Position numbers and translations under genes: made by a program | Assembly (NCBI GenBank): GCA_963825935.1 | Contig: CAWGUN010000013.1 | Location: 948,340 to 1,012,339, forward strand | Source: an uncultured Bacteroidales bacterium | Lineage (GTDB): Bacteria > Bacteroidota > Bacteroidia > Bacteroidales > VadinHA17 | Direction of reading: 5' to 3' | Length of the DNA stretch: 64,000 bases | Part shown: positions 4,583 to 46,315 of the stretch, piece after piece | How the letters are laid out: every line of letters begins with the position of its first letter | Position numbering within the stretch: position 1 is the first letter of the stretch | Notes under the pieces: model-generated | The model's input: the letters and a program-made list of their open reading frames with translations, nothing else | Databases searched by the model: none | Told to the model about the DNA's origin: nothing

Positions 4583-5617
4583 ATGGATGAAATAAGCATT
4601 ATATCAGCTGGTTACAGAAAATATTACGGAGTTTCTGAAACGAAAATTGTCCCATTGCCACGATCAGGATCGGACCGGAGATATTACAGGATTTTTAGCG
4701 GCGATAAAACAATTATCGGAGCCTATAATGCAAACCGGGAGGAAAATGATGCTTTTGTGGGATTCACTGAACATTTCCTGAAAAAACAGCTGCCGGTACC
4801 TGAGGTCTTTTGTTATATGAAGGAAAGTGATATCTATTTTCTGGAAGACCTGGGTGATATTAATTTGTATACATGGCTCCATAAGAAGCCGGATATTTCA
4901 AACTTTGACAGCAGTACAATGGCTCTTTACCGTAAAGTGCTTGACAATCTGATACTCTTTCAGACAAGGGGAATCGAAGGACTGAATCTGGACCTTTGCT
5001 ATCCCCACAGGAGCTTCGACCGCCAGTCAATGATGTGGGATATGAATTACTTCAAGTACATGTTATTGAAGCTTCTGGCAGTTCCTTTTAATGAAAGGCT
5101 CCTTGAGCATGATTTCAACTCCCTGGCCGATTATCTTCTGGAAACAGGGCAGGATTATTTTCTTTACCGGGATTTTCAGACTGCAAATATCATGATCGTA
5201 GGGGAGGAGCCATGGTTCATCGATTATCAGGGTGGAAGAAAAGGGGCCCCACAATATGATGTGGCATCATTACTGTACGATGCAAAAATCCCGATGTCGC
5301 AGACCGACAGAGAGGAGCTCCTGTGGTACTATATCGAAAAATTTTGTTCTGCCAGCAATGAGGACAATCAAAAATTCAAGGGATATTATGACGGGTTCAG
5401 CATGATCAGGATTATGCAGGCTCTTGGCGCCTTTGGATTCAGGGGTTTGTATGAACAGAAACCAACTTTTACAGATAGTATAGTTCCGGGTGTATTTCTC
5501 CTGAATGAGGTTATATTTTCTGCTGAGAATCATGTTAAGCTTCCTGAATTGTATAAGACTGTCAGATCAATTCAAAGTACTCCGACATTTCAGCAACTGG
5601 TATCAGCCACTCATTAA
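4583..5617 (+). CDS. amgK: Aminoglycoside-phosphotransferase-fold sugar kinase, AmgK-like (anomeric MurNAc/GlcNAc kinase)
   Basis: APH-type catalytic loop YRDFQTANIMI and IDYQGG. It lies directly upstream of a MurU-like nucleotidyltransferase. Confidence 0.6.
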   Translation: MDEISIISAGYRKYYGVSETKIVPLPRSGSDRRYYRIFSGDKTIIGAYNANREENDAFVGFTEHFLKKQLPVPEVFCYMKESDIYFLEDLGDINLYTWLHKKPDISNFDSSTMALYRKVLDNLILFQTRGIEGLNLDLCYPHRSFDRQSMMWDMNYFKYMLLKLLAVPFNERLLEHDFNSLADYLLETGQDYFLYRDFQTANIMIVGEEPWFIDYQGGRKGAPQYDVASLLYDAKIPMSQTDREELLWYYIEKFCSASNEDNQKFKGYYDGFSMIRIMQALGAFGFRGLYEQKPTFTDSIVPGVFLLNEVIFSAENHVKLPELYKTVRSIQSTPTFQQLVSATH

Positions 5618-5627
5618 TACCTGACCA

Positions 5628-6368
5628 ATGAAAGCAATGATACTGGCAGCAGGAAAGGGTACCAGGCTCGGGAAGCTCACTGAAAACATTCCAAAAGTTC
5701 TTCTCCAGATAAATGGTAAAAGCCTGCTGCAGCATGCTGTTGAAAAATGCACCTCGTCGGGGTTTGATGATATTATCGTTAATGTTCACCATTTTGCCGG
5801 TATGGTTGAAGATGAAATTAACAGGATGAACAGAATGGGTTTCCGGTTGACTATTTCAGATGAAAGGAAAGAACTGCTTGAAACCGCAGGAGGACTTTAT
5901 AAAGCAAGACATTTTTTTGACAAGGAACCATTCCTATTATATAATGCTGATATAATTACGGATTTTCCGATTTCTGATTTACTTGCACTTCAATTCGAAA
6001 AGAAAGGCCTTGCAACACTGGCAGTGAGGAATCGTGAAGGTAAGAGGTATTTTATGGTTAACCGGGAAGGTCTTTTGAAGGGGTGGTGCAACACTTCAAC
6101 GGGTGAGAGAATTATTGCAGGTGATGAAAATGAAGAGCTGAGCAAAATAGCTTTCTCAAGCATCCACATAATTAGTCCCGAAATTTTCAATTACATGAGT
6201 GAAGGAATCTATACCATGACGGCATTATACATGCAGCTTGCATCTGATCATAAAATTCACACGCTCCTTCATGATGACGGGTACTGGTTCAATGTTGGTA
6301 CTCCTGAAATACTCGAAGAAGCCGGGCTGTTCCTTAAATCGCATCCACCGGTTGTCGGTAGCCGGTAA
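5628..6368 (+). CDS. murU: Sugar-1-phosphate nucleotidyltransferase, MurU-like (MurNAc-alpha-1-P uridylyltransferase)
   Basis: MILAAGKGTRLG nucleotidyltransferase signature, about 245 aa, paired with the AmgK-like kinase. Confidence 0.6.
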   Translation: MKAMILAAGKGTRLGKLTENIPKVLLQINGKSLLQHAVEKCTSSGFDDIIVNVHHFAGMVEDEINRMNRMGFRLTISDERKELLETAGGLYKARHFFDKEPFLLYNADIITDFPISDLLALQFEKKGLATLAVRNREGKRYFMVNREGLLKGWCNTSTGERIIAGDENEELSKIAFSSIHIISPEIFNYMSEGIYTMTALYMQLASDHKIHTLLHDDGYWFNVGTPEILEEAGLFLKSHPPVVGSR

Positions 6369-8043: not shown

Positions 8044-9238
8044 ATGAGAAAAGTTTTAATTATCGGAGCCGGAGGAGTCAGTTCAGTGGTTGTTCACAAG
8101 ATGGCCTCTCTTCCGGAGGTTTTCAGTGAAATAATGTTAGCCAGCCGGACAAAATCAAAATGTGATGCTATTGCAAAAAAAATCGGCAATAACAGGGTTC
8201 AGACCGCTCAGGTCGATGCGGATAAAGTGCCCCAGCTTGTAAAGCTGATAAACTCTTTCAAACCCGACATTATTGTAAATGTGGCTTTGCCTTACCAGGA
8301 TCTTCATATAATGGATGCTTGTCTCGAAACCGGCGTTGCATACCTTGATACTGCGAACTATGAGCCTCTTGAGGAAGCAAAATATGAATACAGCTGGCAG
8401 TGGGCCTACAGAGAAAGGTACAAAAAGGCAGGTATTACTGCAATACTGGGCTGCGGATTTGATCCGGGAGTGACATCAATTTACACAGCATATGCTGCAA
8501 AGCATCATTTTGATGAACTCAATTATCTCGATATTGTTGATTGTAATGCCGGAGACCACGGAAAACCTTTTGCAACAAATTTCAATCCTGAGATAAACAT
8601 CAGGGAAGTAACACAAAAGGGTAAATACTGGGAAGACGGAAAATGGATCTACACAAAGCCTCACCAGATTCATAAGCCATTGAATTATCCTGATATCGGA
8701 CCAAAGGAATCTTACCTTATTTATCATGAGGAGCTGGAATCACTGGTAAAAAATTTCCCGACTCTTAAACGTGCCAGATTCTGGATGACATTCGGACAGG
8801 AGTATCTGACACACCTCAGAGTTATCCAGAATATTGGAATGGCAGGTATTGAACCTATAATGTTCGATGGGAGAGAAATAGTCCCGATTAAGTTCCTGAA
8901 GGCAGTATTACCTGATCCGGGTGAGCTCGGCGAGAACTATAAGGGATGGACATCCATAGGCTGCCGTATCAAAGGAATAAAAAACGGGAAAAGTAAAACC
9001 TATTACATCTACAATAACTGCAGCCACGAGGCAGCCTATAAGGAAACAGGAGCCCAGGGCGTTAGTTATACCACAGGAGTACCGGCTGCCATTGGCACAA
9101 TGATGTACCTTAATGGAATCTGGAAAAAACCGGGGGTTTTCAATGTTGAAGAGTTTGATCCTGATCCCTTTATGGAACAGCTAAATCTGCTCGGGATTGC
9201 CCTGGGTGGAACTGCATGATGTTGACCTGGAATTATAA
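8044..9238 (+). CDS. Carboxy(nor)spermidine synthase/dehydrogenase (saccharopine dehydrogenase family); the last ~15 codons are displaced into the +1 frame
   Basis: Rossmann motif VLIIGAGGVSSVV. The called ORF ends at 9219 as ..LNLLGIALGGTA. The +1 frame from 9194 reads GLPWVELHDVDLEL and stops at 9236-9238, which looks like the authentic C-terminus. Confidence 0.75.
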
Positions 9239-9242
9239 AAAT

Positions 9243-9281
9243 GGTACAAGGTGCAACGGTACGACGGTGCGACGGTGCGAC
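9243..9281. repeat. Octanucleotide tandem array (GGTRCRAC), about 5 units
   Basis: ggtacaa ggtgcaac ggtacgac ggtgcgac ggtgcgac, located between the dehydrogenase and decarboxylase genes. Confidence 0.9.
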
Positions 9282-9319
9282 AGTTTAAAGGTTTTAATTC
9301 AGAGTTTTATCTGGTAAAT

Positions 9320-9365
9320 CCCCTCCTGGGAGAGCTTGTCCCGCGAAGCGGGAGGTGGGGGTGGG
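9320..9365. repeat. GC-rich palindromic (REP-like) element
   Basis: cccctcc..tcccgc-gaa-gcggga-ggtgggggtggg. The core hairpin is at 9339-9353, flanked by C-tract and G-tract arms. Confidence 0.6.
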
Positions 9366-11320: not shown

Positions 11321-11393
11321 GCCGAAACCGCCGTACCGTCGTACCTCGTACCATCGTACCGTCACGAACCGCCGTACCGTCTTACCGTCGTAC
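11321..11393. repeat. Octanucleotide tandem array (CGYCGTAC, the complement of the 9243 unit), about 9 units
   Basis: gccgaaac cgccgtac cgtcgtac ctcgtac catcgtac cgtcacgaac cgccgtac cgtcttac cgtcgtac. It starts 5 nt after the mnmA stop. Confidence 0.9.
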
Positions 11394-11398
11394 CCTCC

Positions 11399-16868: not shown

Positions 16869-18475
16869 ATCATAAGTTTCACCGTTTCGCCCGCCCTGAT
16901 CCTGACAGGCAATCCATTCATCACGTCATTCCCATTTATTATCTTTTCTTTTTTAGAACCTGAGACCACCATGTAACTTTTTTCTTTCTCCACTGTAAAA
17001 TATTCAGGGAACTGGTTAATTCTTGGCCAGTCGAATGGCAGGTGCATATATTCGGAATGGCGCTTTTTATCAAGCATCAGGAGTCCCTTCCAGTCTGAAT
17101 CTGAAGATATAGAAAGAAAAAGCATATTATCTTTAAGTACCCCCCCGATATGGAGGTCCTGTGACCATGGAGTCAGATATGCTCCGCCAGTTTTCCACAG
17201 GCAGTACATAATTGTTGTCCTCGCAAAGTTACCATCGCCATGCCACCCTTCGATTATACCGGATGGCTGCTGTTTGCTCCACATAACTTTAATCTCACTG
17301 TCGATCCACTCTTTTGCTGAAGGAACAGGTTCGCGTGCATAAAGGTTTAGTGTGCCTTCTATAGCGTCAGCGTAACCATCCTGGCTGGTACCTTCCCAGG
17401 CAAAGTTCCTGTATTTTGAGTTCAGGATACTGAGAGCAGTAATTACAGGTTCTCTGTATTTTTCAATTTTATCAATCAGGTAAACAGTATAAAAGCCATT
17501 CAGGGTATACCCGAAATTGTCTGCAATTGCACTGTCTACGGGAATACCCTTTACCGGATTTATTGAATTATAAAAGAGGCCGTCATTATTTCGCCCGACT
17601 GCAATTATCCGGTCAAGCATAGCATAAAGAGGAGCACTGTACAACTCTTTTTTTGAAGGATCAGCATATGAAACTGTCGCATAAAGCTCACATAGTCCTG
17701 AAACGATCTCACAACCATGATCTCTCAGGCGGAGAACTTTAAAATCTTTTGTCGGGTGATTATTTCCAAGAAGGTAGTAATCGCCAAGTCTCTCTGCCCA
17801 CTCAAGGTATTTTTTTTCACCGGTTGTCCAGTAAATTCTTGAAAGGGATTGTAACATGTCACCATTAACCTCCGGATTGTCAGAACATATTTTCCCGTAA
17901 GGAGTCTCCAGAGGAGCATATTTCCAGATGTCGTCAAGAATGCCGATCAGCCGCTCTGACCAGGGACTAGGTCCAAGCCACTCTGTAAGGGGAATCAGAC
18001 CATCCTTTATGTATTCAGCAGAGCCGAAGATTATATCAGAAAGAATCGTATCACTGACAGCAAATCCTTTTTTTGAGAAGGAATAAGTGTCGGGCATTCT
18101 GCCAATCCTTGATGTCAGCCTTTTCTCTGTTTCAAGCATCTCTTTCATTTTCCCGTTGAACAAATCATGATCAAGGAGCGCAGATGTCAAAACCATAAAC
18201 GGATAATTATCTGCTGCACAATCTTTTGCATTCCAGATATCTTTGCTCTCGGCATCATTTATGTTCCTGGGAATGAGACCTGTCAGTGGATCGGCCAGTT
18301 TTAACCAGCCATCAAGGTATTTAAGGCAACGGTCATAACCTTCATTTACAAGTACACTATTCTCTGCGGCTTGTTTAAATATCTCCTCCTGTTCCACAGA
18401 ATATTTTCTTTCTGAACAGCTGTATAATAAAAATATCGCTACTGTCAGGATCGAAATAATTTTAATTTTTTTCAT
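16856..18475 (-). CDS. Hypothetical lipoprotein, possibly with an (alpha/alpha)6-barrel-like fold
   Basis: MKKIKIISILTVAIFLLYSC lipobox. There is no catalytic motif I can name. The 3' end overlaps the convergent radical SAM gene by 13 nt. Confidence 0.5.
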   Translation of the reverse strand: MKKIKIISILTVAIFLLYSCSERKYSVEQEEIFKQAAENSVLVNEGYDRCLKYLDGWLKLADPLTGLIPRNINDAESKDIWNAKDCAADNYPFMVLTSALLDHDLFNGKMKEMLETEKRLTSRIGRMPDTYSFSKKGFAVSDTILSDIIFGSAEYIKDGLIPLTEWLGPSPWSERLIGILDDIWKYAPLETPYGKICSDNPEVNGDMLQSLSRIYWTTGEKKYLEWAERLGDYYLLGNNHPTKDFKVLRLRDHGCEIVSGLCELYATVSYADPSKKELYSAPLYAMLDRIIAVGRNNDGLFYNSINPVKGIPVDSAIADNFGYTLNGFYTVYLIDKIEKYREPVITALSILNSKYRNFAWEGTSQDGYADAIEGTLNLYAREPVPSAKEWIDSEIKVMWSKQQPSGIIEGWHGDGNFARTTIMYCLWKTGGAYLTPWSQDLHIGGVLKDNMLFLSISSDSDWKGLLMLDKKRHSEYMHLPFDWPRINQFPEYFTVEKEKSYMVVSGSKKEKIINGNDVMNGLPVRIRAGETVKLMIQEL

Positions 18476-18554: not shown

Positions 18555-18584
18555 AAGATTGCAAGACTGCAAGACCGCAAGACC
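18555..18584. repeat. Octanucleotide tandem array (AAGAYYGC), about 3.75 units
   Basis: aagattgc aagactgc aagaccgc aagacc, ending 6 nt before the ATG at 18591. Confidence 0.85.
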
Positions 18585-22776: not shown

Positions 22777-22932
22777 GGGGATTCCTCGCTTCGCTCGGAA
22801 TGACAATGCATTTTGGGGTTACAGGGGGTAGAGGAGGCGGAATGCCTACCGCATTCCGCCTCCTCTACCCCCAAAAAATACGATTTGTCAATTCCGAAAG
22901 ACACCCACGGAGTGGGTGGAATGAGGAATCTC
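22777..22932. repeat. Composite GC-rich palindromic (REP-like) element
   Basis: Perfect 22-bp inverted repeat at 22824-22845 / 22851-22872 with a 5-nt spacer. A second hairpin, cacccac-gga-gtgggtg, lies at 22902-22918. Imperfect outer arms are attcctc/gaggaat and tcggaatgacaa/ttgtcaattccga. Confidence 0.85.
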
Positions 22933-22992
22933 CAAATTAAGGTAGTTCACTTTCACTGGAAAATAAAACAATTCTTTTCATAACTTTACACC

Positions 22993-23072
22993 CTTGAATC
23001 ATTGCACCGTTGTACCCTTGCACCGTTGTACCGTTGCACCATTGAACCATTGTACCATTATACCATTGAACC
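22993..23072. repeat. Octanucleotide tandem array (RTTGNACC), 10 units
   Basis: cttgaatc attgcacc gttgtacc cttgcacc gttgtacc gttgcacc attgaacc attgtacc attatacc attgaacc, ending 7 nt before the recF ATG. Confidence 0.95.
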
Positions 23073-23079
23073 TTTTGTT

Positions 23080-24204
23080 ATGTATTTAAAAAAGCTATCT
23101 CTGACCAATTTTAAAAACTACGATAGGGCAGAACTTGAATTTTCACCCAAAATAAATTGCCTTGTGGGCAATAACGGTGTCGGAAAAACAAACATTCTTG
23201 ATGCAATTCACTATCTGTCACTTACTAAAAGTTTCTTTAACAATATAGACAGTATCAGCATACGCCATGGTGAAGAATATTTTATAATTAACGGGACCTT
23301 TGTAAAAGACGATGTAGAAGATCAGATCTATTGTGCTTTTCAGAAACAAAAACAGAAAGTTCTTAAGAAGAACAGCAAGGAGTATCAGAAACTCTCAGAA
23401 CATGTGGGTAAATACCCTGTAGTAATGATCTCTCCTGCTGACAATGCTCTTATTTCTGAGGGCAGTGAAGAGAGGCGCAAATTCCTTAACAAGATAATAA
23501 GTCAGTATAATGCAGAATACCTCGATTCGGTTTTAAAGTACAGCAAAGCACTTCAGCACAGGAACAGACTTTTAAAGGACTTCAAAATGACAGGCAGGTT
23601 TGAGAGTGATGCCTTATCAATCTGGGATTCCCAGCTTGTGAAATACGGAACCTATGTATTTAATGAGAGGGAGCTGCTTGTAAATGAGCTCATCCCGGTT
23701 TTCCAGGAGTATTATTCAATGATCTCATCTGAAAAAGAACTGGTTAAGCTGGCGTACCGGTCGCATCTTTCTGAAGGAAACTTCAGTGAGGCCCTGGTAA
23801 ATTCTGTCAATAAAGACAGGTTTCTTGAGTATACGACAATTGGCATCCATAAAGATGACCTGATGCTTGAAATGAATCAGCATCCGGTTAAATCACTTGG
23901 CTCCCAGGGCCAGCAGAAATCATATCTCGTTGCACTTAAACTGGCAAAATTTGATTACATAAGACGGAAATCAGGTATTTCACCTATTCTTCTTCTTGAT
24001 GATATTTTCGATAAATTTGATGCTGAACGTGTAGAACAGATAATAAGGCTGGTAGGCCAAAACAGATTCGGCCAGATTTTTATAACTGATACTCACCAGA
24101 GCCGGCTGCACGAAATACTTTCTACCCATAAAACTGATTATAAACTGTTTATGATAAGAGGTAATGAAGTTAAGGAGGTAATTCAGAACGGAAAACCGGT
24201 GTGA
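23080..24204 (+). CDS. recF: DNA replication and repair protein RecF
   Basis: Starts MYLKKLSLTNFKNY. Walker A is GNNGVGKTNILDAI and Walker B is LLLDDIFDKFD. The ORF-track start at 23002 merely translates the octamer array. Confidence 0.9.
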   Translation: MYLKKLSLTNFKNYDRAELEFSPKINCLVGNNGVGKTNILDAIHYLSLTKSFFNNIDSISIRHGEEYFIINGTFVKDDVEDQIYCAFQKQKQKVLKKNSKEYQKLSEHVGKYPVVMISPADNALISEGSEERRKFLNKIISQYNAEYLDSVLKYSKALQHRNRLLKDFKMTGRFESDALSIWDSQLVKYGTYVFNERELLVNELIPVFQEYYSMISSEKELVKLAYRSHLSEGNFSEALVNSVNKDRFLEYTTIGIHKDDLMLEMNQHPVKSLGSQGQQKSYLVALKLAKFDYIRRKSGISPILLLDDIFDKFDAERVEQIIRLVGQNRFGQIFITDTHQSRLHEILSTHKTDYKLFMIRGNEVKEVIQNGKPV

Positions 24205-24494
24205 TGAGACGAAGCAAGACCATATCGCTTGCCGAGGCAATGAAGGATTACATCCGCGAAATGAACCTTGGGGACAAACTGAGTGAGGTTGGTGTAATTA
24301 ATTCGTGGGAGGAGACTGTTGGAAAAGCTATCTCATCACGGACATCGAAGCTGTATATAAAAGATCATGTCCTCTATGTTCACCTTAATTCTTCAGTAGT
24401 ACGAAATGAACTGCTGATGCTCAGACAGGCACTTATTAATAAGCTTAATGAAAAAGCAGGAAGTGAAGTAATAAAGGAAATTGTCCTGAAATAA
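24201..24494 (+). CDS. DUF721 (DciA-related) protein
   Basis: A small ORF that overlaps the recF stop (ATGA), the usual position for DUF721. It contains the motif WEETVGKAISSRTSKLYIKDHVLYV. Confidence 0.7.
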   Translation: MMRRSKTISLAEAMKDYIREMNLGDKLSEVGVINSWEETVGKAISSRTSKLYIKDHVLYVHLNSSVVRNELLMLRQALINKLNEKAGSEVIKEIVLK

Positions 24495-28484: not shown

Positions 28485-28976
28485 ATGATGAAAAAAAGTA
28501 AAACCGGACTTTTAGCAGTAGCAGGTATTATCCTGATTTTAGTTGTCTCCTGCGACCCTTATAAAAAATATGAAAAGGAACAGAAAGCAGAAATTCAGAC
28601 ATTCATTAGCAGTCATCCTGAATATAATTTCCAGCTGAAAAACAGCGGATTGTATTACTGCGATGTTACAGTTGGAACAGGACCGGCAGCAGTCACTCAT
28701 GATACGGCGTATGTCAAGTATACAGCGAAATACCTAAATGGCACCACTTTTGATACGAATGTAGGCAAAAATGATACACTTATATTTCCCATTAATGAGG
28801 GTATTTGGATTGTAGGATTCGACGAGGGTATAACTTATATGAAAGAGGGGGGGAAAGCTGTAATGGTTATTCCATCTGATATTGGATATGGGAACACAGG
28901 TTATTATTTCCCTGCCTGGACACCTCTTTTCTTTGAGATTGATCTGGTAAAAATTGTTCCTGCATCTGGCAAATAG
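28485..28976 (+). CDS. FKBP-type peptidyl-prolyl isomerase lipoprotein
   Basis: Signal ending LVVSC, followed by an FKBP core (VKYTAKYLNGTTFD..IPSDIGYG). ATG 28485 is preferred over TTG 28476. Confidence 0.8.
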   Translation: MMKKSKTGLLAVAGIILILVVSCDPYKKYEKEQKAEIQTFISSHPEYNFQLKNSGLYYCDVTVGTGPAAVTHDTAYVKYTAKYLNGTTFDTNVGKNDTLIFPINEGIWIVGFDEGITYMKEGGKAVMVIPSDIGYGNTGYYFPAWTPLFFEIDLVKIVPASGK

Positions 28977-28978
28977 CA

Positions 28979-29677
28979 TTACTGCAGCACAAATACCGCA
29001 AGCCTTTTATTCAGATCAGGGATATTCATCTTCCATTCTGATATCCTCATCGTTATAATTGATTCAGAAGGCAGGGTAATATCAGCAGCAATGCACAGGA
29101 GGGAATCATTTTTGCAGGACTCAAGGATACATTCCATCATTTTCTGGTTCCTGTAAGGTGTCTCCATAAAGATCTGAGCATAACCTTCCTGTGCCTTCTT
29201 CTCGAGTTCCCGGAGTTTAGCAGACCTTTCAGCAGGTTTTACAGGAAGATACCCGTTGAAAGAAAAATTTTGTCCATTCATACCTGATGATATCAGCGCC
29301 ATTATAATTGAGGATGGGCCAGACAAAGGAGTGACTGTGATTTTTTTACGATGGGCCAGAGAAACTAATTTTGCACCCGGATCAGCAATACCGGGCAGAC
29401 CTGCTTCGCTCATTAATCCGATATCTGACCCGTTGATGACTGGGCCAAGGAAGTGACTTATGTCAGATTCTCCGGTATGTTCGTTAAGTTCAAAAAATAC
29501 TGTTTCATCTATCGGGAATGCTCTGTCAATTGACCTGAGGTACCTCCTTGCGCTTCTGATATCTTCAACAACAAAATGTCTGAGACGCCTTGTTATTTCA
29601 ATCGCTTTTTCAGGGATAACATCCTTGAAATCTTCACCTCCCAAAGTAACAGGTATGAGATATATCTTCCCTTTCAC
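28979..29677 (-). CDS. Tetrapyrrole-methylase-fold SAM-dependent methyltransferase (RsmI-related)
   Basis: GKIYLIPVTLG start and SEAGLPGIADPG motif. Confidence 0.6.
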   Translation of the reverse strand: MKGKIYLIPVTLGGEDFKDVIPEKAIEITRRLRHFVVEDIRSARRYLRSIDRAFPIDETVFFELNEHTGESDISHFLGPVINGSDIGLMSEAGLPGIADPGAKLVSLAHRKKITVTPLSGPSSIIMALISSGMNGQNFSFNGYLPVKPAERSAKLRELEKKAQEGYAQIFMETPYRNQKMMECILESCKNDSLLCIAADITLPSESIITMRISEWKMNIPDLNKRLAVFVLQ

Positions 29678-30941: not shown

Positions 30942-32852
30942 ATGTATCATTCATTCTTTCGCAATCATTATTTCGATTTCTTGATCACTGCTTTGCTCTG
31001 TTGCTCATCAGCATATTCCCAGAATGTCAGGAACCTGGAAATAGCTACTGGTTCCGGACTTAGGGTTCAGAATCTTGTGCTTACTGATAGTTCCATTCTG
31101 AAGTTAACAGCTGAGAGGCCATTATTCAGCTTTCTCCTTGACGGAATCCTGATTAACACATACGATTATCCCGTATTAAAAGATAGCGGTGTAATGACTC
31201 AGATAATCGGAATCCATCTGAAAGTGAAATTCACCACACCTTCTGTTGTATCCGGTAGATGGACCGGCGAGATCGTTTTTGAGAATACAGGGCGTGATAC
31301 CATTTCTTTAAGCAATGTTGTTCCATTAGGCGAGGAGAGATCATCAGTATATATAACCGGTTATGGCCCTCCCGATCTTGCCCGTGCCTGTCTCTTCAGG
31401 CCGGGTTTCCGTCCATTGAGGGTTATCCTTCCCGATAACGCCTGGGAACTGGGATATTCATCATTTTCAACAGAGAGCGGTTTGTCAGTCTGTGCCCTTG
31501 TAAGAAGACAAAAAACTGAAGGGGGACAGAAAAGAAGATATGAGACTATTCTGCCGCCGAAGTCAAAAGTGACTTATGCAATGTACACCGATATTTTCAG
31601 GGGCGAATGGCAGGAAGGCCTCAGGAAAATGTTCAGGGACAGATATTTATATGACCTGGATAAATTTGACAACACTCTGTTTGAAAGACCCGACCTGGTC
31701 TGGATCAGGGAAAGTTACCTGATCATTCTTCAAATGGCATGGGACAAGGATTTCTATGACAGACTTTCGGGGAAATATACCTTCCCGGACCTTCTTAAAA
31801 AAGGAATTGAAACCCTTGGAGGTACTGATGTATATGCAATATGGCCTACATGGCCGCGTCTTGGGCTCGATCAGAGAAACCAATGGGATATGTACAGGGA
31901 TCTGCCGGGAGGAACCAGCCAGCTCCGCAATCTCGCACGAATGTCCCGCTCTTATGGTACAAAGTTTTTCATTGAATATAATCCATGGGATAACAGCACA
32001 AGGAAAGAGGATCAATTAAAAGGAATGGCAAGTATAATTTCCGAAACCGAAGCAGATGGTGTGGTCCTTGATACAAGAGGGAGTTCAAGCTATGAACTTC
32101 AGGCTGCAGCCGACAGTGTCAGGAAAGGAGTTGTCATGTATTCTGAAGGCATGGCAATTACAAAAGACATGCCCGGCATTATATCGGGCCGCGTTCATAA
32201 TGCAATATTTTTAAGTCCTGAGCTCAATCTCAATAAGCTTATTAAACCTGAATTTGCGATCTTCCGGGTTTGTGATGTTGGCGAAGATGTTCTTCACCGT
32301 GAAATTGCCATTGCATTCTTCAATGGGTATGGTTCCGAGCTGCATCTGGGTCGTCCGGGCGGAAGAGGTGAAAAATATGATGCCGACCTGGAATATCTTG
32401 CTCGTACCACCTTCATACTCAGGCAGAATAATGATGCTTTTCTCGATTATAACTGGACTCCGCTCATCGAAACATATGTGGATAATGTTTTTGTTAATAA
32501 ATGGAATTCGGGAGAAAAGACAGTATATACTATCCTTAACATGAAGTCTGAGGGAGTATCGGGTAAACTTTTTAAAGCTGAAAAGCATAATGGCAGACAT
32601 TTCGTATCGATATGGAATCATGAAAACCTTAATCCAGAAACTGAAAACGGGAAGGTTATTATTTCTTCATTGGCAGATGGATGGAATTCCATCTTTACAG
32701 GATCAAGAAGTGAGGGATCAGTCGACTGCATTGCTGAGTTTCCGGATATTCTAAGATCACGGCTGGATGGTGATTCACTGAAATTAAAAAGCCCGGGGAC
32801 AGGTAAAATATTTATCTGGAAGGGTAATCCTTCACACAAGACTCTGATATAA
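30942..32852 (+). CDS. Hypothetical secreted protein (possibly TIM-barrel glycosidase-like)
   Basis: Signal-like N-terminus ending SSAYSQ. Strand-end acidic residues in KFFIEYNPWD, DGVVLDTRG and VVMYSEG. No named family was recognised. Confidence 0.5.
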   Translation: MYHSFFRNHYFDFLITALLCCSSAYSQNVRNLEIATGSGLRVQNLVLTDSSILKLTAERPLFSFLLDGILINTYDYPVLKDSGVMTQIIGIHLKVKFTTPSVVSGRWTGEIVFENTGRDTISLSNVVPLGEERSSVYITGYGPPDLARACLFRPGFRPLRVILPDNAWELGYSSFSTESGLSVCALVRRQKTEGGQKRRYETILPPKSKVTYAMYTDIFRGEWQEGLRKMFRDRYLYDLDKFDNTLFERPDLVWIRESYLIILQMAWDKDFYDRLSGKYTFPDLLKKGIETLGGTDVYAIWPTWPRLGLDQRNQWDMYRDLPGGTSQLRNLARMSRSYGTKFFIEYNPWDNSTRKEDQLKGMASIISETEADGVVLDTRGSSSYELQAAADSVRKGVVMYSEGMAITKDMPGIISGRVHNAIFLSPELNLNKLIKPEFAIFRVCDVGEDVLHREIAIAFFNGYGSELHLGRPGGRGEKYDADLEYLARTTFILRQNNDAFLDYNWTPLIETYVDNVFVNKWNSGEKTVYTILNMKSEGVSGKLFKAEKHNGRHFVSIWNHENLNPETENGKVIISSLADGWNSIFTGSRSEGSVDCIAEFPDILRSRLDGDSLKLKSPGTGKIFIWKGNPSHKTLI

Positions 32853-43855: not shown

Positions 43856-46315
43856 ATGAAGAAGCTGATATTATTAAATATCGCCCTTGTTATTATTGCT
43901 TCAGCCTCTCCGCTTAACTCTCAGAAACTGATCAAAGGTTCATTTATTGCAGGTAAGACATACGCCGGCACTAAAGTGAACAGAATTTATATACCCCCTC
44001 CAAAGGAATTCTGGCTGAAGGCAGGAGCAAAAGGCAGGGCATCAATAAGTGTATATTATACATCTTTTCCGCAATCTGCTATCACTGCTGTAGAATATGC
44101 AACTTCGGTTCTTGAGGCTATCCTGCCAGCTGATGTGAATATCACAATTTTAGCTACATGGGAGCCTATAACAACCAAGGGAGTCCTTGCCCAATCATCG
44201 TCAACAGGTTATGCTGCAGGCTGGGGTATAGATGCCTTCAAGCCACTGGCATTTTACCCTTCGGCACTTGCGGAACATATTGCAGGAAAGAAGCTGAATG
44301 GAGACCTTGAAGGTGATATAAGTTTAAACATTAACAGCACTGTGAACTGGTATTATGGAACAGATGGAAAAACTTCCCCGCTTAAATATGATCTTGTTAC
44401 TGTTGTGATCCATGAACTTTGCCATGGCCTGGGTTTTTTCGACAGCTTTAATGTGACCGGTTCAACCGGCTCCTATGGTGTTTCTTCATTTCCCGTGATC
44501 TATGATACATTTGTCGAAAACGCGGCAAGGGTAAAGCTTACAGATACAAATACATATGCAAATCCCTCTTCTGATCTGAAAGTACAGCTGACAAGCCAGA
44601 ATCTCTATTTTAACGGACCTCTTCTGAAGTTCTATACATCAGGGTTAAGGGCACGGCTCTATGCTCCACTAACTTTTGATGCCGGCTCAAGTATAGCGCA
44701 TCTGGATGATGCTACCACACCTGATTCAATAGGATTGATGAGACCCTTTATCGACTTTGGCGAAGCCATTCATAATCCGGGTAAATTTACATTGTCAATA
44801 CTTGGCGATCTTGGCTGGATTAATACAAGAATAATTCATAAAGCCCATAAAGACACTGAAGAACACCTGACACAGTTGACTATTAATGCTGAAATAAAAT
44901 CAGATACATCATATAATCATAATAAAGTGGGACTGGTATGGTCTTTTGACAATTTTGTTTCAAAAGATACAACCTATATGATTTCTCCCGCGTTAAATAA
45001 TAATTATACCTCAAATATTCTGATTCCCTCATATGATGTCAGGCTTGAATACTATCTTTTCGCCGAGGACAGATTTTTACGGACTTTCAGAATGCCATCA
45101 TTAATCGATAAATTCCATTTTTCGGTTTATATCGGGACTGATACAGTAAAGCCTGTTATTTCTCACACTCCGGCAGATTATTATTTCAATGTTATCGATT
45201 CAATCATATTTGATGCCACGGTAACAGATAATATCGGAATCGACACTGTTTATGTTGAATATAAGGTAAATGAAGGTTCCTCCAGTTTTATAGGTCTTAA
45301 AGCAAAAGGGAAAGACAGATTCAGTAATATTTTTCCTGCCCGGTCACTATCTTTAAAGGGTGGAGATTCATTGCTCTATAGAATAATAGCCTTCGACAGC
45401 GCTGCTATAGCCAACAAGGCGATTTCCCCGAAGTCCGGATATTATTCTGTTAAAATTGAACCTGTTAACCCTGTTGCTGAGGGTTATTCTACCGATTTTT
45501 CAAATGCTTCAGGCGATTTTTTAAACAATGGTTTCAGGATAATTAAACCGGCAGGTTTTTCCAGATTTGGGCTTAATACACCTCACCCATATGTTAGTCC
45601 TGAAGGAAATGGCGACAGTATCGGGTACACTGCAATTCTCAAAACTCCGGTCAAGTTTGATGCAAATGGCATGATTATCAGTTATATGGAAGTAGTCCTT
45701 GTAGAACCCGGAGAGACGGGATCTGTATTTGGTTCGCCTGGTTTCTATGATTATGTTATTGTTGAAGGTTCAAAGAACTTCGGGAAAACCTGGTTCCCTC
45801 TTGCTGCCGGATACGACAGCAGGTATTTAACTGCATGGGAAACAGCATACAACAGCTCCATCGTTGGACAAAACTCCACTTTTATCGGAGATGAGTCATT
45901 GCTTGCAAAGCATACTCTGTTTCCAAAGGTATCTTCTGATATTTCAGCAGGCGACACTCTCATGGTGCGGTTCCGGTTATTTTCCGATCCGTTTGCTAAT
46001 GGCTGGGGATGGGTAATTGAGGATCTTCATGTTGGACCCCTCGTAAACAAGATCGACGACATTAATTATCAGCCTTTTGTGGTTTATCCAAATCCAGGGA
46101 ATGGGGTAGTCAAGATAAAACAACCTGATGGCAATGGCATTAAACCTTTAAAATATAACGTCTTCAATTCAACCGGGACCTTGATTTCTTCAGGTCTGAC
46201 GGATGGAGGTAATGAGACTGAGATAAATATTTCAGGACATTCACCAGGTCTCTACTTCATTGTTTTATACCTCGATGATGGAATCAGGACAATAAAATAT
46301 ACCCTGATAAGGTAA
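43856..46315 (+). CDS. Secreted HExxH metalloprotease-like protein with T9SS C-terminal sorting domain
   Basis: Signal peptide, VVIHELCHGLGF motif and a C-terminal PFVVYPNPGNGVVKIK...GLYFIVLYLDDGIRTIKYTLIR. Confidence 0.7.
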   Translation: MKKLILLNIALVIIASASPLNSQKLIKGSFIAGKTYAGTKVNRIYIPPPKEFWLKAGAKGRASISVYYTSFPQSAITAVEYATSVLEAILPADVNITILATWEPITTKGVLAQSSSTGYAAGWGIDAFKPLAFYPSALAEHIAGKKLNGDLEGDISLNINSTVNWYYGTDGKTSPLKYDLVTVVIHELCHGLGFFDSFNVTGSTGSYGVSSFPVIYDTFVENAARVKLTDTNTYANPSSDLKVQLTSQNLYFNGPLLKFYTSGLRARLYAPLTFDAGSSIAHLDDATTPDSIGLMRPFIDFGEAIHNPGKFTLSILGDLGWINTRIIHKAHKDTEEHLTQLTINAEIKSDTSYNHNKVGLVWSFDNFVSKDTTYMISPALNNNYTSNILIPSYDVRLEYYLFAEDRFLRTFRMPSLIDKFHFSVYIGTDTVKPVISHTPADYYFNVIDSIIFDATVTDNIGIDTVYVEYKVNEGSSSFIGLKAKGKDRFSNIFPARSLSLKGGDSLLYRIIAFDSAAIANKAISPKSGYYSVKIEPVNPVAEGYSTDFSNASGDFLNNGFRIIKPAGFSRFGLNTPHPYVSPEGNGDSIGYTAILKTPVKFDANGMIISYMEVVLVEPGETGSVFGSPGFYDYVIVEGSKNFGKTWFPLAAGYDSRYLTAWETAYNSSIVGQNSTFIGDESLLAKHTLFPKVSSDISAGDTLMVRFRLFSDPFANGWGWVIEDLHVGPLVNKIDDINYQPFVVYPNPGNGVVKIKQPDGNGIKPLKYNVFNSTGTLISSGLTDGGNETEINISGHSPGLYFIVLYLDDGIRTIKYTLIR

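What the first reader, a model, noticed from the sequence alone, without database searches (positions are those of the whole stretch)
22993..23072. Ten-unit octanucleotide tandem array forming almost the whole recF leader
Seen: ten head-to-tail 8-nt units (cttgaatc attgcacc gttgtacc cttgcacc gttgtacc gttgcacc attgaacc attgtacc attatacc attgaacc) with consensus RTTGNACC. The array starts just after a TAACTTTA box (22981-22988, one mismatch from the TAnnTTTG -7 element) and ends 7 nt before the recF ATG.

A period of 8 is not a multiple of 3, so the array is not coding. The 26-codon N-terminal extension in the ORF track (LAPLYRCTIEPLYHYTIEPF) is an artefact of translating it. Its complement, GGTNCAAY, belongs to the same unit family as the arrays at 9243 and 11321, and more loosely the one at 18555.

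Inference: this is a dispersed octanucleotide microsatellite family at gene boundaries. It could act as a slipped-strand spacing or contingency element, as an array of binding sites, or as a leader RNA element. I know of no described function.
Basis: partly seen in the sequence, partly recalled or inferred. Interest (0 to 1): 0.6.

Follow-up and report, generated by a model that had tools for sequence, protein, structure and literature searches.

The report
Variable 8-base repeat in recF leader
The run of ten 8-base units in front of recF is a real, non-coding, fast-changing simple repeat, one of about 36 such runs at gene ends in this genome, and it belongs to a known but functionally unsolved class of bacterial intergenic repeats.

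Summary
Ten head-to-tail RTTGNACC units (window 22993-23072) lie between a conserved Bacteroidota-type -7 box and the recF ATG at 23080.

- **Non-coding.** The RecF model starts at that ATG, and a 97.6%-identical strain has a 14-nt shorter array.
- **A family.** It is one of about 36 GGTRYRAY arrays in this 4.0-Mb genome, which also holds about 125 heptamer arrays. Nearly all are intergenic.
- **Hypervariable.** In 21 kb compared between two strains, the only indels of 3 nt or more fall in the two octamer arrays.
- **Old but fluid.** About half of 30 congeners carry a short-period, C>G array in the recF leader, with different units. Leader length runs from about 20 to 177 nt.
- **Orientation rule.** Arrays within 15 nt of a stop codon have the GGT strand as sense (own 14:2, other Bacteroidota 18:1). 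There is no bias further away. The GGT strand is rich in ATG and stop triplets, and the ACC strand, which is recF's leader, has no ATG.

Best reading: a slippage-grown long simple-sequence repeat that acts as an unstructured, AUG-free 5'-UTR spacer filtered by orientation. It is not an on/off switch. The same polarity was published for G-rich heptamers (PMC4692102). This scan has noted similar arrays on other genomes.

The parts
22981..22988 (+). TAACTTTA, a Bacteroidota-type -7 promoter box of recF. Its 3' half plus CACC (22985-22992) reads as a degenerate eleventh unit.
   Evidence: Sequence. The same box with its upstream CAATTCTTTTNN context recurs upstream of recF in most of 30 congeners. 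The genome-wide scan extends the array to 22985. The transcription start was not mapped.
22993..23072 (+). Ten tandem 8-nt units RTTGNACC (GGTNCAAY on the minus strand). This is the inferred recF 5'-UTR.
   Evidence: It is 14 nt shorter in the 97.6%-identical strain. As RNA it is unstructured (z=+2.0). The ACC strand of the family's arrays carries no ATG triplet. There is no Rfam match.
23073..23079 (+). 7-nt spacer TTTTGTT between the array and the start codon.
23080..24204 (+). recF (374 aa), followed by a DciA/DUF721 gene at 24201-24494.
   Evidence: TIGR00611 at 329.8 bits. Pfam SMC_N/AAA_23 on recF and PF05258 on the next gene.
9243..9281 (+). Same-family array (GGTNCRAC x5), starting 23 nt after the stop of the 391-aa gene 8044-9219, GGT strand = sense.
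11321..11394 (-). Same-family array (GGTACGAC-type, about 8 units), starting 4 nt after the mnmA stop, GGT strand = sense.
18555..18583 (+). Loosely related octamer array AAGACYGC x3.6, ending 7 nt before the ATG of a 961-aa PD-(D/E)XK gene.
   Evidence: The other strain has one extra unit.

Best explanation
The array is a long simple-sequence repeat (an octanucleotide microsatellite) that grew, and still changes length, by slipped-strand mispairing. It fills almost the whole untranslated leader of recF, between the -7 promoter box and the start codon.

It is one of about 36 GGTRYRAY arrays in the genome. These survive only in dispensable DNA at gene ends, and in the orientation the neighbouring gene tolerates. 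The GGT strand is full of ATG and stop triplets, and it is the sense strand where an array touches a stop codon; there an array unit often supplies the stop itself. The ACC strand has no ATG and few stops, and it is the sense strand in the recF leader.

For recF the array therefore acts as a length-variable, unstructured, AUG-free, C>G spacer. It may tune leader length, and so translation or transcript fate, slightly. It is not an on/off contingency switch, and there is no sign of a dedicated binding-site array.

Shown: the array is real, non-coding and strain-variable; it belongs to a family; the orientation rule holds; the codon-signal asymmetry holds; the RNA is predicted to lack structure. 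Inferred: that it is transcribed as the 5'-UTR, that slippage is the mechanism, and that selection on orientation is the filter.
For: - **Non-coding.**
- **Slippage signature.** Edge units are more degenerate than interior units (1.30 vs 0.63 mismatches). Adjacent units are more alike than distant ones (7.05 vs 6.45 of 8). Units are more alike within arrays than between arrays (6.60 vs 5.72 of 8). Copy number ranges broadly from 3 to 14 with no preferred value.
- **Indel hot spots.** In 21 kb at 97.6% identity, the only indels of 3 nt or more are in the recF array and the 18555 array.
- **Intergenic.** 38 of 45 period-8 arrays and 101 of 125 period-7 arrays are intergenic.
- **Position.** The G-rich strand's 5' end is nearer a gene boundary in 33 of 38 period-8 arrays (p=4e-6).
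- **Orientation.** The bias is confined to arrays 15 nt or less from a stop: own genome 14:2, other Bacteroidota genomes 18:1. There is none at 16-400 nt.
- **Stop in phase.** The stop sits in phase at unit positions 5-7 in 11 of 32 arrays (p=0.0012).
- **Codon signals.** 89 ATG and 103 stop triplets on the GGT strand against 0 and 13 on the ACC strand.
- **Leader structure.** MFE -7.8 against shuffles at -13.0 +/- 2.6.
- **Congeners.** The -7 box is conserved, the leader runs 19-177 nt, arrays use different units, and the array is missing in about half of the species.
- **No functional theme.** I judged this by reading the neighbouring proteins, not by a family search.
- **Repair and termination genes.** MutS, MutL and Rho are all present. 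From my own knowledge, 7-8-nt loops lie outside the loop size usually handled by MutS.
Against: - The same unit family recurs at about 36 loci and in scattered Bacteroidota lineages, yet in only 1 of 400 sampled high-quality genomes of the phylum. Plain slippage does not explain that.
- An array has persisted at the recF leader, and at the mnmA stop, across many species. This could reflect function.
- The same polarity was reported for GGGAATC and GGGGAYT heptamers, whose G-rich strand has neither ATG nor stops (PMC4692102). Codon-signal asymmetry therefore cannot be the whole cause.
- Tight adjacency to start codons is rare (2 cases in this genome), so the leader-side rule rests on few independent cases.
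Confidence: 0.6

Rival explanations
1. Regulatory leader RNA. The roughly 90-nt leader presents a pyrimidine-C dinucleotide every 8 nt in unstructured, C>G RNA. It serves as a loading site for Rho (rut-like attenuation of recF) or as a tandem binding platform for a single-strand RNA-binding protein (S1, cold-shock or RRM type). Unit number would set occupancy.
For: - The leader has 27 C against 13 G in 91 nt, and 23 of 25 congener leaders have C>G.
- The RNA is predicted to be unstructured.
- Rho is encoded, in a 619-aa frame.
- Array presence and strand are kept at the recF leader in many species while the units change.
- Similar proposals were made for TAACTGA repeats (PMC4679880).
Against: - Congeners are not independent, because an array and its strand are inherited.
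- About half of the species have short leaders without an array, so it is not required.
- No copy number is preferred.
- Orientation bias at 3' ends vanishes beyond 15 nt from the stop. An RNA-level 3'-UTR function would not predict that.
- C content (30%) is only moderate for a rut site (my own knowledge).
Confidence: 0.2
2. Contingency (phase-variable) element. Slippage in unit number switches or grades recF expression between cells, giving subpopulations with different recombination-repair capacity.
For: - Unit number differs between two strains at this array and at the array in front of an AddB-like nuclease gene, so two recombination genes carry leader arrays.
- A 5'-UTR tetranucleotide repeat tunes uspA2 in Moraxella catarrhalis (cited in PMC4679880).
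Against: - The array is downstream of the -7 box and upstream of the ATG, so unit changes touch neither promoter spacing nor frame.
- The family sits next to genes of all kinds, mostly at 3' ends.
- Only two repair genes are involved.
- No within-population data could be obtained.
Confidence: 0.08
3. DNA-level element. Either a tandem array of duplex binding sites (iteron-like) for a protein, or a non-B structure on the GG-containing template strand that punctuates transcription units. A related option is a remnant or arm of a mobile hairpin cassette.
For: - A common unit at many loci suggests a common reader.
- The polarity is the same as that of the G4-forming heptamers of Xanthomonas and Nostoc (PMC4692102).
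- A few arrays occur as inverted pairs, and inverted heptamer arrays flank four 118-aa genes in this genome.
- Assemblies break at the arrays.
Against: - Flanks are not conserved and there are no terminal repeats.
- The recF array is solo and not self-complementary.
- GG runs with 6-nt loops are poor quadruplex formers (my own knowledge).
- An 8-bp period does not keep sites on one face of the helix.
- Unit number is broad.
- Arrays sit inside apparent operons with 16-25 nt to the next start, so they cannot be efficient terminators.
Confidence: 0.07
4. The array is translated as an N-terminal extension of RecF from the TTG at 23002.
For: The frame is open from 23002.
Against: - The RecF family model begins at the ATG-started protein.
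- The sister strain differs by 14 nt, which breaks the frame.
- Congeners have arrays of period 7 or 8 and of any length.
- The open frame simply reflects the stop-poor ACC strand.
Confidence: 0.01

Closest known systems
Long simple sequence repeats (LSSR) with 5-11-nt units in prokaryotic genomes (Mrazek, Guo and Shah 2007, as summarised in PMC4679880)
   Same: Tandem units of 5-11 nt, far longer than chance allows. They are concentrated in non-coding DNA of particular, phylogenetically scattered genomes, with heptamers most abundant. This genome has 125 period-7 and 45 period-8 arrays.
   Different: The unit family GGTRYRAY and its Bacteroidota hosts were not among the genomes described in what I read.
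G-rich heptamer repeats GGGAATC (Xanthomonas) and GGGGAYT (Nostoc), Rehm et al. 2015, PMC4692102
   Same: - Dispersed intergenic arrays.
- Closer to the ORF on the 5' side of the G-rich strand, whatever the ORF orientation.
- On the coding strand right after, or overlapping, the stop codon, and on the non-coding strand upstream of starts.
- Kept between the same genes in related species, with extensive length and sequence variation.
- No functional theme among neighbouring genes.
   Different: Those repeats have 7-nt units with G3-4 tracts, form quadruplexes in vitro, and prefer 4 units. Here the units are 8 nt with only GG, there is no preferred number, and the G-rich strand carries ATG and stop triplets, which theirs does not.
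TAACTGA heptamer direct repeats of marine Beggiatoaceae, Cyanobacteria and five Bacteroidetes (MacGregor 2015, PMC4679880)
   Same: Short tandem arrays a few nucleotides upstream of start codons in forward orientation. Taxonomic distribution is patchy, downstream genes show no functional pattern, and the function is unknown (translational regulation was proposed).
   Different: The unit and period differ. Most arrays of the present family abut stop codons rather than starts.
AGAT repeats in the 5'-UTR of uspA2 of Moraxella catarrhalis (Attia and Hansen 2006, cited in PMC4679880)
   Same: A tandem repeat between promoter and start codon whose copy number varies between strains.
   Different: There the effect on expression was measured and concerns a surface protein of a pathogen. 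Here nothing is measured, and the gene is a housekeeping repair gene.
REP/BIME and MITE-type intergenic repeats
   Same: Dispersed, intergenic, and often just after stop codons.
   Different: Those are palindromic hairpins with defined ends. The recF array is a direct repeat with less predicted structure than shuffled controls and has no conserved flanks.

Membership tests
Long simple sequence repeats (LSSR) | Head-to-tail repeats of a 5-11-nt unit, longer than chance allows | tested here: met
   TRF gives 9.1 copies of an 8-nt unit. The reversed control pattern has 0 hits against 34.
Long simple sequence repeats (LSSR) | Many loci per genome, mostly non-coding | tested here: met
   There are 266 arrays of period 5-12. 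38 of 45 period-8 arrays and 101 of 125 period-7 arrays are intergenic.
Long simple sequence repeats (LSSR) | Length polymorphism by whole units (slippage) | tested here: met
   The other strain has +8 nt at the 18555 array and -12 to -14 nt at the recF array. These are the only indels of 3 nt or more in 21 kb. One-nucleotide differences there may be assembly errors.
Polar gene-end G-rich repeats (Rehm et al. 2015) | G-rich strand on the coding strand right after or over the stop codon, and on the non-coding strand upstream of starts | tested here: met
   Stop side: 14:2 in this genome and 18:1 in others. Overall 33 of 38. The start side has few cases: recF plus one other within 15 nt.
Polar gene-end G-rich repeats (Rehm et al. 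2015) | Heptamer with G3-4 tracts able to form a quadruplex, with a preference for 4 units | tested here: not met
   The unit is 8 nt with GG only. Unit numbers run from 3 to 14 without a mode at 4.
TAACTGA repeat family | Unit TAACTGA | tested here: not met
   The unit is RTTGNACC / GGTNCAAY.
Phase-variable contingency locus | Repeat inside the ORF or between the promoter hexamers, so that a unit change switches frame or promoter spacing | tested here: not met
   The array lies between the -7 box and the ATG. The box position is conserved in congeners.
Phase-variable contingency locus | Length heterogeneity within a population, with an expression consequence | not testable with these tools
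Only one strain pair was compared.
Rho utilisation (rut) site | About 70-80 nt of unstructured, C-rich, G-poor RNA | tested here: inconclusive
   The 91-nt leader has 27 C and 13 G and is unstructured. Rho is present. C content is only 30%, and termination was not measured.
REP / MITE hairpin elements | Self-complementary arms and conserved ends | tested here: not met
   Folding z-scores are +2.0 and +1.8. Flanks share no sequence.
Known RNA families (Rfam 15) | A match to a curated covariance model | tested here: not met
   No hit overlaps the array. Only sub-threshold generic hairpin hits appear at 22805-22884.

The most novel reading that the evidence does not exclude
The gene-end polarity shared by this octamer family, the Xanthomonas and Nostoc heptamers and other arrays seen in this scan reflects a general RNA- or transcription-level punctuation system. 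Inward-reading transcripts would carry a C-rich, regularly spaced loading platform (Rho or another single-strand binder), and outward-reading ones a G-rich, non-loading tract. The recF leader array would then be an attenuator tuned by unit number.
Probability: 0.12. Interest if true: 0.7.

Novelty: new member of a known kind. Interest (0 to 1): 0.4.

Why it matters
Short tandem repeats of 7-8 nt at bacterial gene ends have been catalogued since 2007 without an accepted function. This case adds a well-delimited octamer family in uncultured Bacteroidota.

It also adds a quantitative rule. The orientation bias is confined to arrays within 15 nt of a stop codon, and the stop is often supplied by an array unit. 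That gives a simple, testable, largely non-adaptive explanation for part of the published polarity.

Practically, these arrays cause false N-terminal ORF extensions, as at recF. They break assemblies, and they are the main multi-nucleotide indel sites between close strains, so they are useful typing markers.

If the minority view is right and the arrays are a regulatory platform, recF and an AddB-like gene would be under a new kind of leader control.

Tried and rejected
- **Second-strain loci.** Exact-protein look-ups to fetch more loci failed for the SDR gene and ribH. The ENA record behind L128 is not held for searching.
- **Naming the organism.** Matching congener loci to named MAG contigs gave no hit. 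The taxon remains 'Bacteroidota, large MAG-only genus'.
- **Replication-strand bias.** Rejected. On contig C13, left of dnaA, the GGT strand is + in 5 arrays and - in 5.
- **Loss of mismatch repair as the cause of repeat richness.** Rejected. MutS and MutL are present.
- **Mobile-element origin.** No conserved flanks or terminal repeats.
- **Known RNA family.** None found.
- **Uniform G-richness rule for all repeat periods.** Not supported for heptamers (60:41, p=0.07).
- **Cross-phylum family.** The hits in Burkholderia, Longimicrobium and others are mostly single-unit arrays. They match a degenerate pattern and are not evidence of one family.
- **Arrays as terminators.** Unlikely. Several sit between co-directional genes only 16-25 nt from the next start, and others are followed or preceded by ordinary hairpin-plus-T terminators.

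Full report
**1. The observation**

The sequence shows TAACTTTA at 22981-22988. Ten 8-nt units run from 22993 to 23072: cttgaatc attgcacc gttgtacc cttgcacc gttgtacc gttgcacc attgaacc attgtacc attatacc attgaacc. A 7-nt spacer follows, then ATG at 23080.

Tandem Repeats Finder reports period 8, 9.1 copies and 80% matches. It also gives higher-order readings of 16 and 24 nt.

The ORF list contains the 400-aa TTG-started frame 23002..24204. The ATG-started 374-aa protein matches RecF TIGR00611 at 329.8 bits (cut-off 172), with profile position 1 at residue 3. The next gene is a DciA/DUF721 gene.

The arrays at 9243, 11321 and 18555 are as described.

**2. A genome-wide family in a repeat-rich genome**

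The window is C13:948340-1012339 of a 4.03-Mb, 40% G+C assembly in 13 contigs. TRF finds 266 non-overlapping arrays of period 5-12 with 3.5 or more copies:

| Period | Arrays | Intergenic |
|---|---|---|
| 7 | 125 | 101 |
| 8 | 45 | 38 |
| 9 | 31 | 25 |

About 11% of the genome is intergenic by my rough ORF calls.

A phase-locked scan finds 36 arrays of three or more GGTRYRAY units. At the two unit positions that the scan left free, 93% are purine (position 4) and 85% are pyrimidine (position 8).

The pattern (GGTRYRAY)x4 hits this genome 34 times, and the reversed control hits 0 times. Five of 24 congeners have 1-9 hits. One genome of another family in the same order has 58, often at contig ends. 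Among 400 other genomes of the phylum that are at least 90% complete, only one has a hit, and it has a single one.

Mixed-unit arrays at several loci per genome occur in MAGs labelled Saprospiraceae, Bacteroidales, Rikenellaceae and Lentimicrobiaceae. The high-G+C hits (Longimicrobium, Burkholderia and others) are single-unit arrays that merely fit the degenerate pattern.

**3. Variation**

An ENA metagenome contig encodes an identical RecF and is 97.6% identical over 21 kb. The 405-nt recF upstream region differs by one substitution outside the array, but the array is 14 nt shorter.

Over the whole 21 kb there are 29 gaps, and 25 of them are 1-2 nt. That assembly has frameshift-split genes, so its 1-nt gaps are not trusted. 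The only gaps of 3 nt or more are at the 18555 array (one extra unit) and at the recF array.

Within arrays, three measures point to local duplication and loss of units:
- Edge units deviate more from the array consensus than interior units (1.30 vs 0.63 mismatches).
- Neighbouring units are more alike than distant ones.
- Units are more alike within arrays than between arrays.

Unit numbers run from 3 to 14 with no preferred value. MutS, MutL and Rho are all encoded, so repeat richness is not due to loss of mismatch repair.

**4. Orthologous sites**

Upstream of recF in 30 congeners (RecF identity 70-87%), a box of the type TAACTTTG with the upstream context CAATTCTTTT recurs. The distance from the box to the ATG ranges from 19 to 177 nt.

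About half of the species have a short-period array in that leader, but with other units:
- ACCGTTGT x5
- ACCGTCRY x13
- CCTTNNRC x8
- GCCTYTGC
- CCTGAAC x9
- CTTTTRYC

C exceeds G in 23 of 25 leaders. These species are kin, so this indicates an old array with unit turnover. It does not amount to 23 independent events.

Downstream of mnmA, about 12 of 30 congeners have a different G-rich short-period array starting at the stop codon. The downstream neighbour differs between them.

**5. Position and orientation**

For period-8 arrays, the 5' end of the G-rich strand is nearer a gene boundary in 33 of 38 cases (p=4e-6). The medians are 11 nt against 86 nt. The trend is weak for heptamers (60:41).

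For the GGTRYRAY family the bias is confined to arrays within 15 nt of a stop codon. Beyond 15 nt there is no significant bias, although the 16-40-nt class in the other genomes (5:1) is too small to judge:

| Set | Distance to stop | Stop faces GGT-strand 5' end | Stop faces 3' end | p |
|---|---|---|---|---|
| This genome | -30 to 15 nt | 14 | 2 | 0.004 |
| This genome | 16-40 nt | 4 | 6 | 0.75 |
| This genome | 41-100 nt | 1 | 2 | 1 |
| Other low-G+C genomes | -30 to 15 nt | 18 | 1 | 8e-5 |
| Other low-G+C genomes | 16-40 nt | 5 | 1 | 0.22 |
| Other low-G+C genomes | 41-100 nt | 4 | 8 | 0.39 |

In 11 of 32 stop-adjacent arrays the stop codon occupies unit positions 5-7 in phase with the array (4 expected, p=0.0012). 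In those cases the ORF ends in an array unit.

In 1664 nt of family arrays, the GGT strand carries 89 ATG and 103 stop triplets. The ACC strand carries 0 ATG and 13 stops.

Arrays within 15 nt of a start codon are rare: recF and one other here, both with the ACC strand as sense. In divergent spacers, 9 of 10 period-8 arrays have C>G on the sense strand of the nearest gene, but several of these are not family members.

No replication-strand bias is seen on contig C13. Flanks share no sequence. Neighbouring genes are of all kinds, including gcvT, queA, a pseudouridine synthase, an ABC-F ATPase, glycoside hydrolases and a TetR regulator. I identified these by reading the proteins, not by a family search.

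**6. The recF leader as RNA**

The 122-nt stretch from the box to just past the ATG folds to -7.8 kcal/mol, against -13.0 +/- 2.6 for shuffles (z=+2.0), and its centroid is unpaired. The opposite strand behaves alike, as expected for direct repeats. No Rfam family matches the array.

**7. Interpretation**

The simplest account that fits all the tests is a slippage-driven simple-sequence repeat. It persists in dispensable DNA and is filtered by what the adjacent gene end tolerates. Only the stop-rich strand can lie against, or cap, an ORF end. Only the ATG-free strand lies against a start.

For recF this makes the array a variable-length, unstructured, AUG-free leader. Because it lies downstream of the -7 box and upstream of the ATG, unit changes cannot switch promoter spacing or reading frame. 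A classical contingency mechanism is therefore not available; at most, leader length is tuned.

An RNA-level role (Rho loading or a tandem binding platform) is not excluded. Three results count against it: the array is absent from many congeners, copy numbers are broad, and the orientation bias disappears beyond 15 nt from stops.

**8. What is known**

- **The class.** Long simple sequence repeats of 5-11 nt (Mrazek et al. 2007, summarised in PMC4679880).
- **The polarity.** Rehm et al. (PMC4692102) reported it for GGGAATC and GGGGAYT heptamers: nearer the ORF on the 5' side, on the coding strand at or over the stop codon, and on the non-coding strand upstream of starts. They found retention between the same genes with length and sequence variation, and no functional theme. 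Their G-rich strand has no ATG or stops, so my codon-signal account cannot be general.
- **Start-side arrays.** MacGregor (PMC4679880) described TAACTGA arrays just upstream of start codons, including in five Bacteroidetes.
- **This scan.** Earlier notes report similar 7-8-nt arrays at stop codons in other genomes. So the scan has seen this kind of array before, on other DNA.

**9. Verdict**

The feature is real, correctly delimited and non-coding. It is a new unit family of a known, functionally unsolved repeat class. Interest is moderate. It lies in the quantified stop-codon rule, in the persistence of the array with unit turnover at orthologous sites, and in practical consequences for annotation and assembly.

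Noticed in passing
window 22780-22935: Three G+C-rich hairpin (REP-like) elements lie between the divergent TPR gene and the recF promoter. Rfam gives only sub-threshold generic hairpin hits there.
   Followed up: partly
window 9300-9360; G000:C12 about 17985-18030; L161 and L182 downstream of mnmA: A recurrent hairpin element (GAGAGCTTGTCCCGCGAAGCGGGAGG and variants) directly follows octamer arrays at several loci, in this genome and in congeners.
   Followed up: no
window 18555-18583: An AAGACYGC array ends 7 nt before the ATG of a 961-aa PD-(D/E)XK (AddB-like) gene, and the sister strain has one more unit. With recF, that makes two recombination genes with leader arrays (n=2 only).
   Followed up: partly
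G000 genome-wide, e.g. C13:147378, C2:348727, C12:19910: Heptamer AAGACAA arrays begin at stop codons (distance -2 to +2) and run to within 4-20 nt of the next start, filling whole intercistronic spacers. Sense-strand orientation is about 10:1.
   Followed up: partly
G000:C6:27536-27972, 28879-29409, 31888-32379, 44667-45153; C9:271907-272445: Genes of 117-118 aa, resembling by eye the four-helix-bundle proteins of 23S rRNA intervening sequences, are each flanked by inverted hexamer or heptamer arrays inside a polysaccharide-export locus.
   Followed up: partly
G000:C11:202825-202875; C13:193804-193890; C6:49393-49973: Octamer arrays occur in inverted pairs in three settings. One pair fills a 51-nt convergent gap, one lies head to head in a divergent gap, and one flanks a 125-aa DksA/TraR-like gene.
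   Followed up: no
G000:C13:1-1600 and C4 about 4900-5700; G039 contig ends: The same priA 3' end plus array sequence sits near two contig ends. In another genome many contigs end in arrays. The arrays break assemblies.
   Followed up: no
window about 33.7-34.2 kb (L189:20690-21125): dnaA lies about 10 kb downstream of recF on the minus strand, so the window is probably near the replication origin.
   Followed up: no
G000: about 8 loci, e.g. C13:495906-495989, C3:59241-59309: Hairpins whose two arms are heptamer arrays (ATTGCGG/ATTTCGG facing AATCCGA), separated by only 6-22 nt.
   Followed up: no
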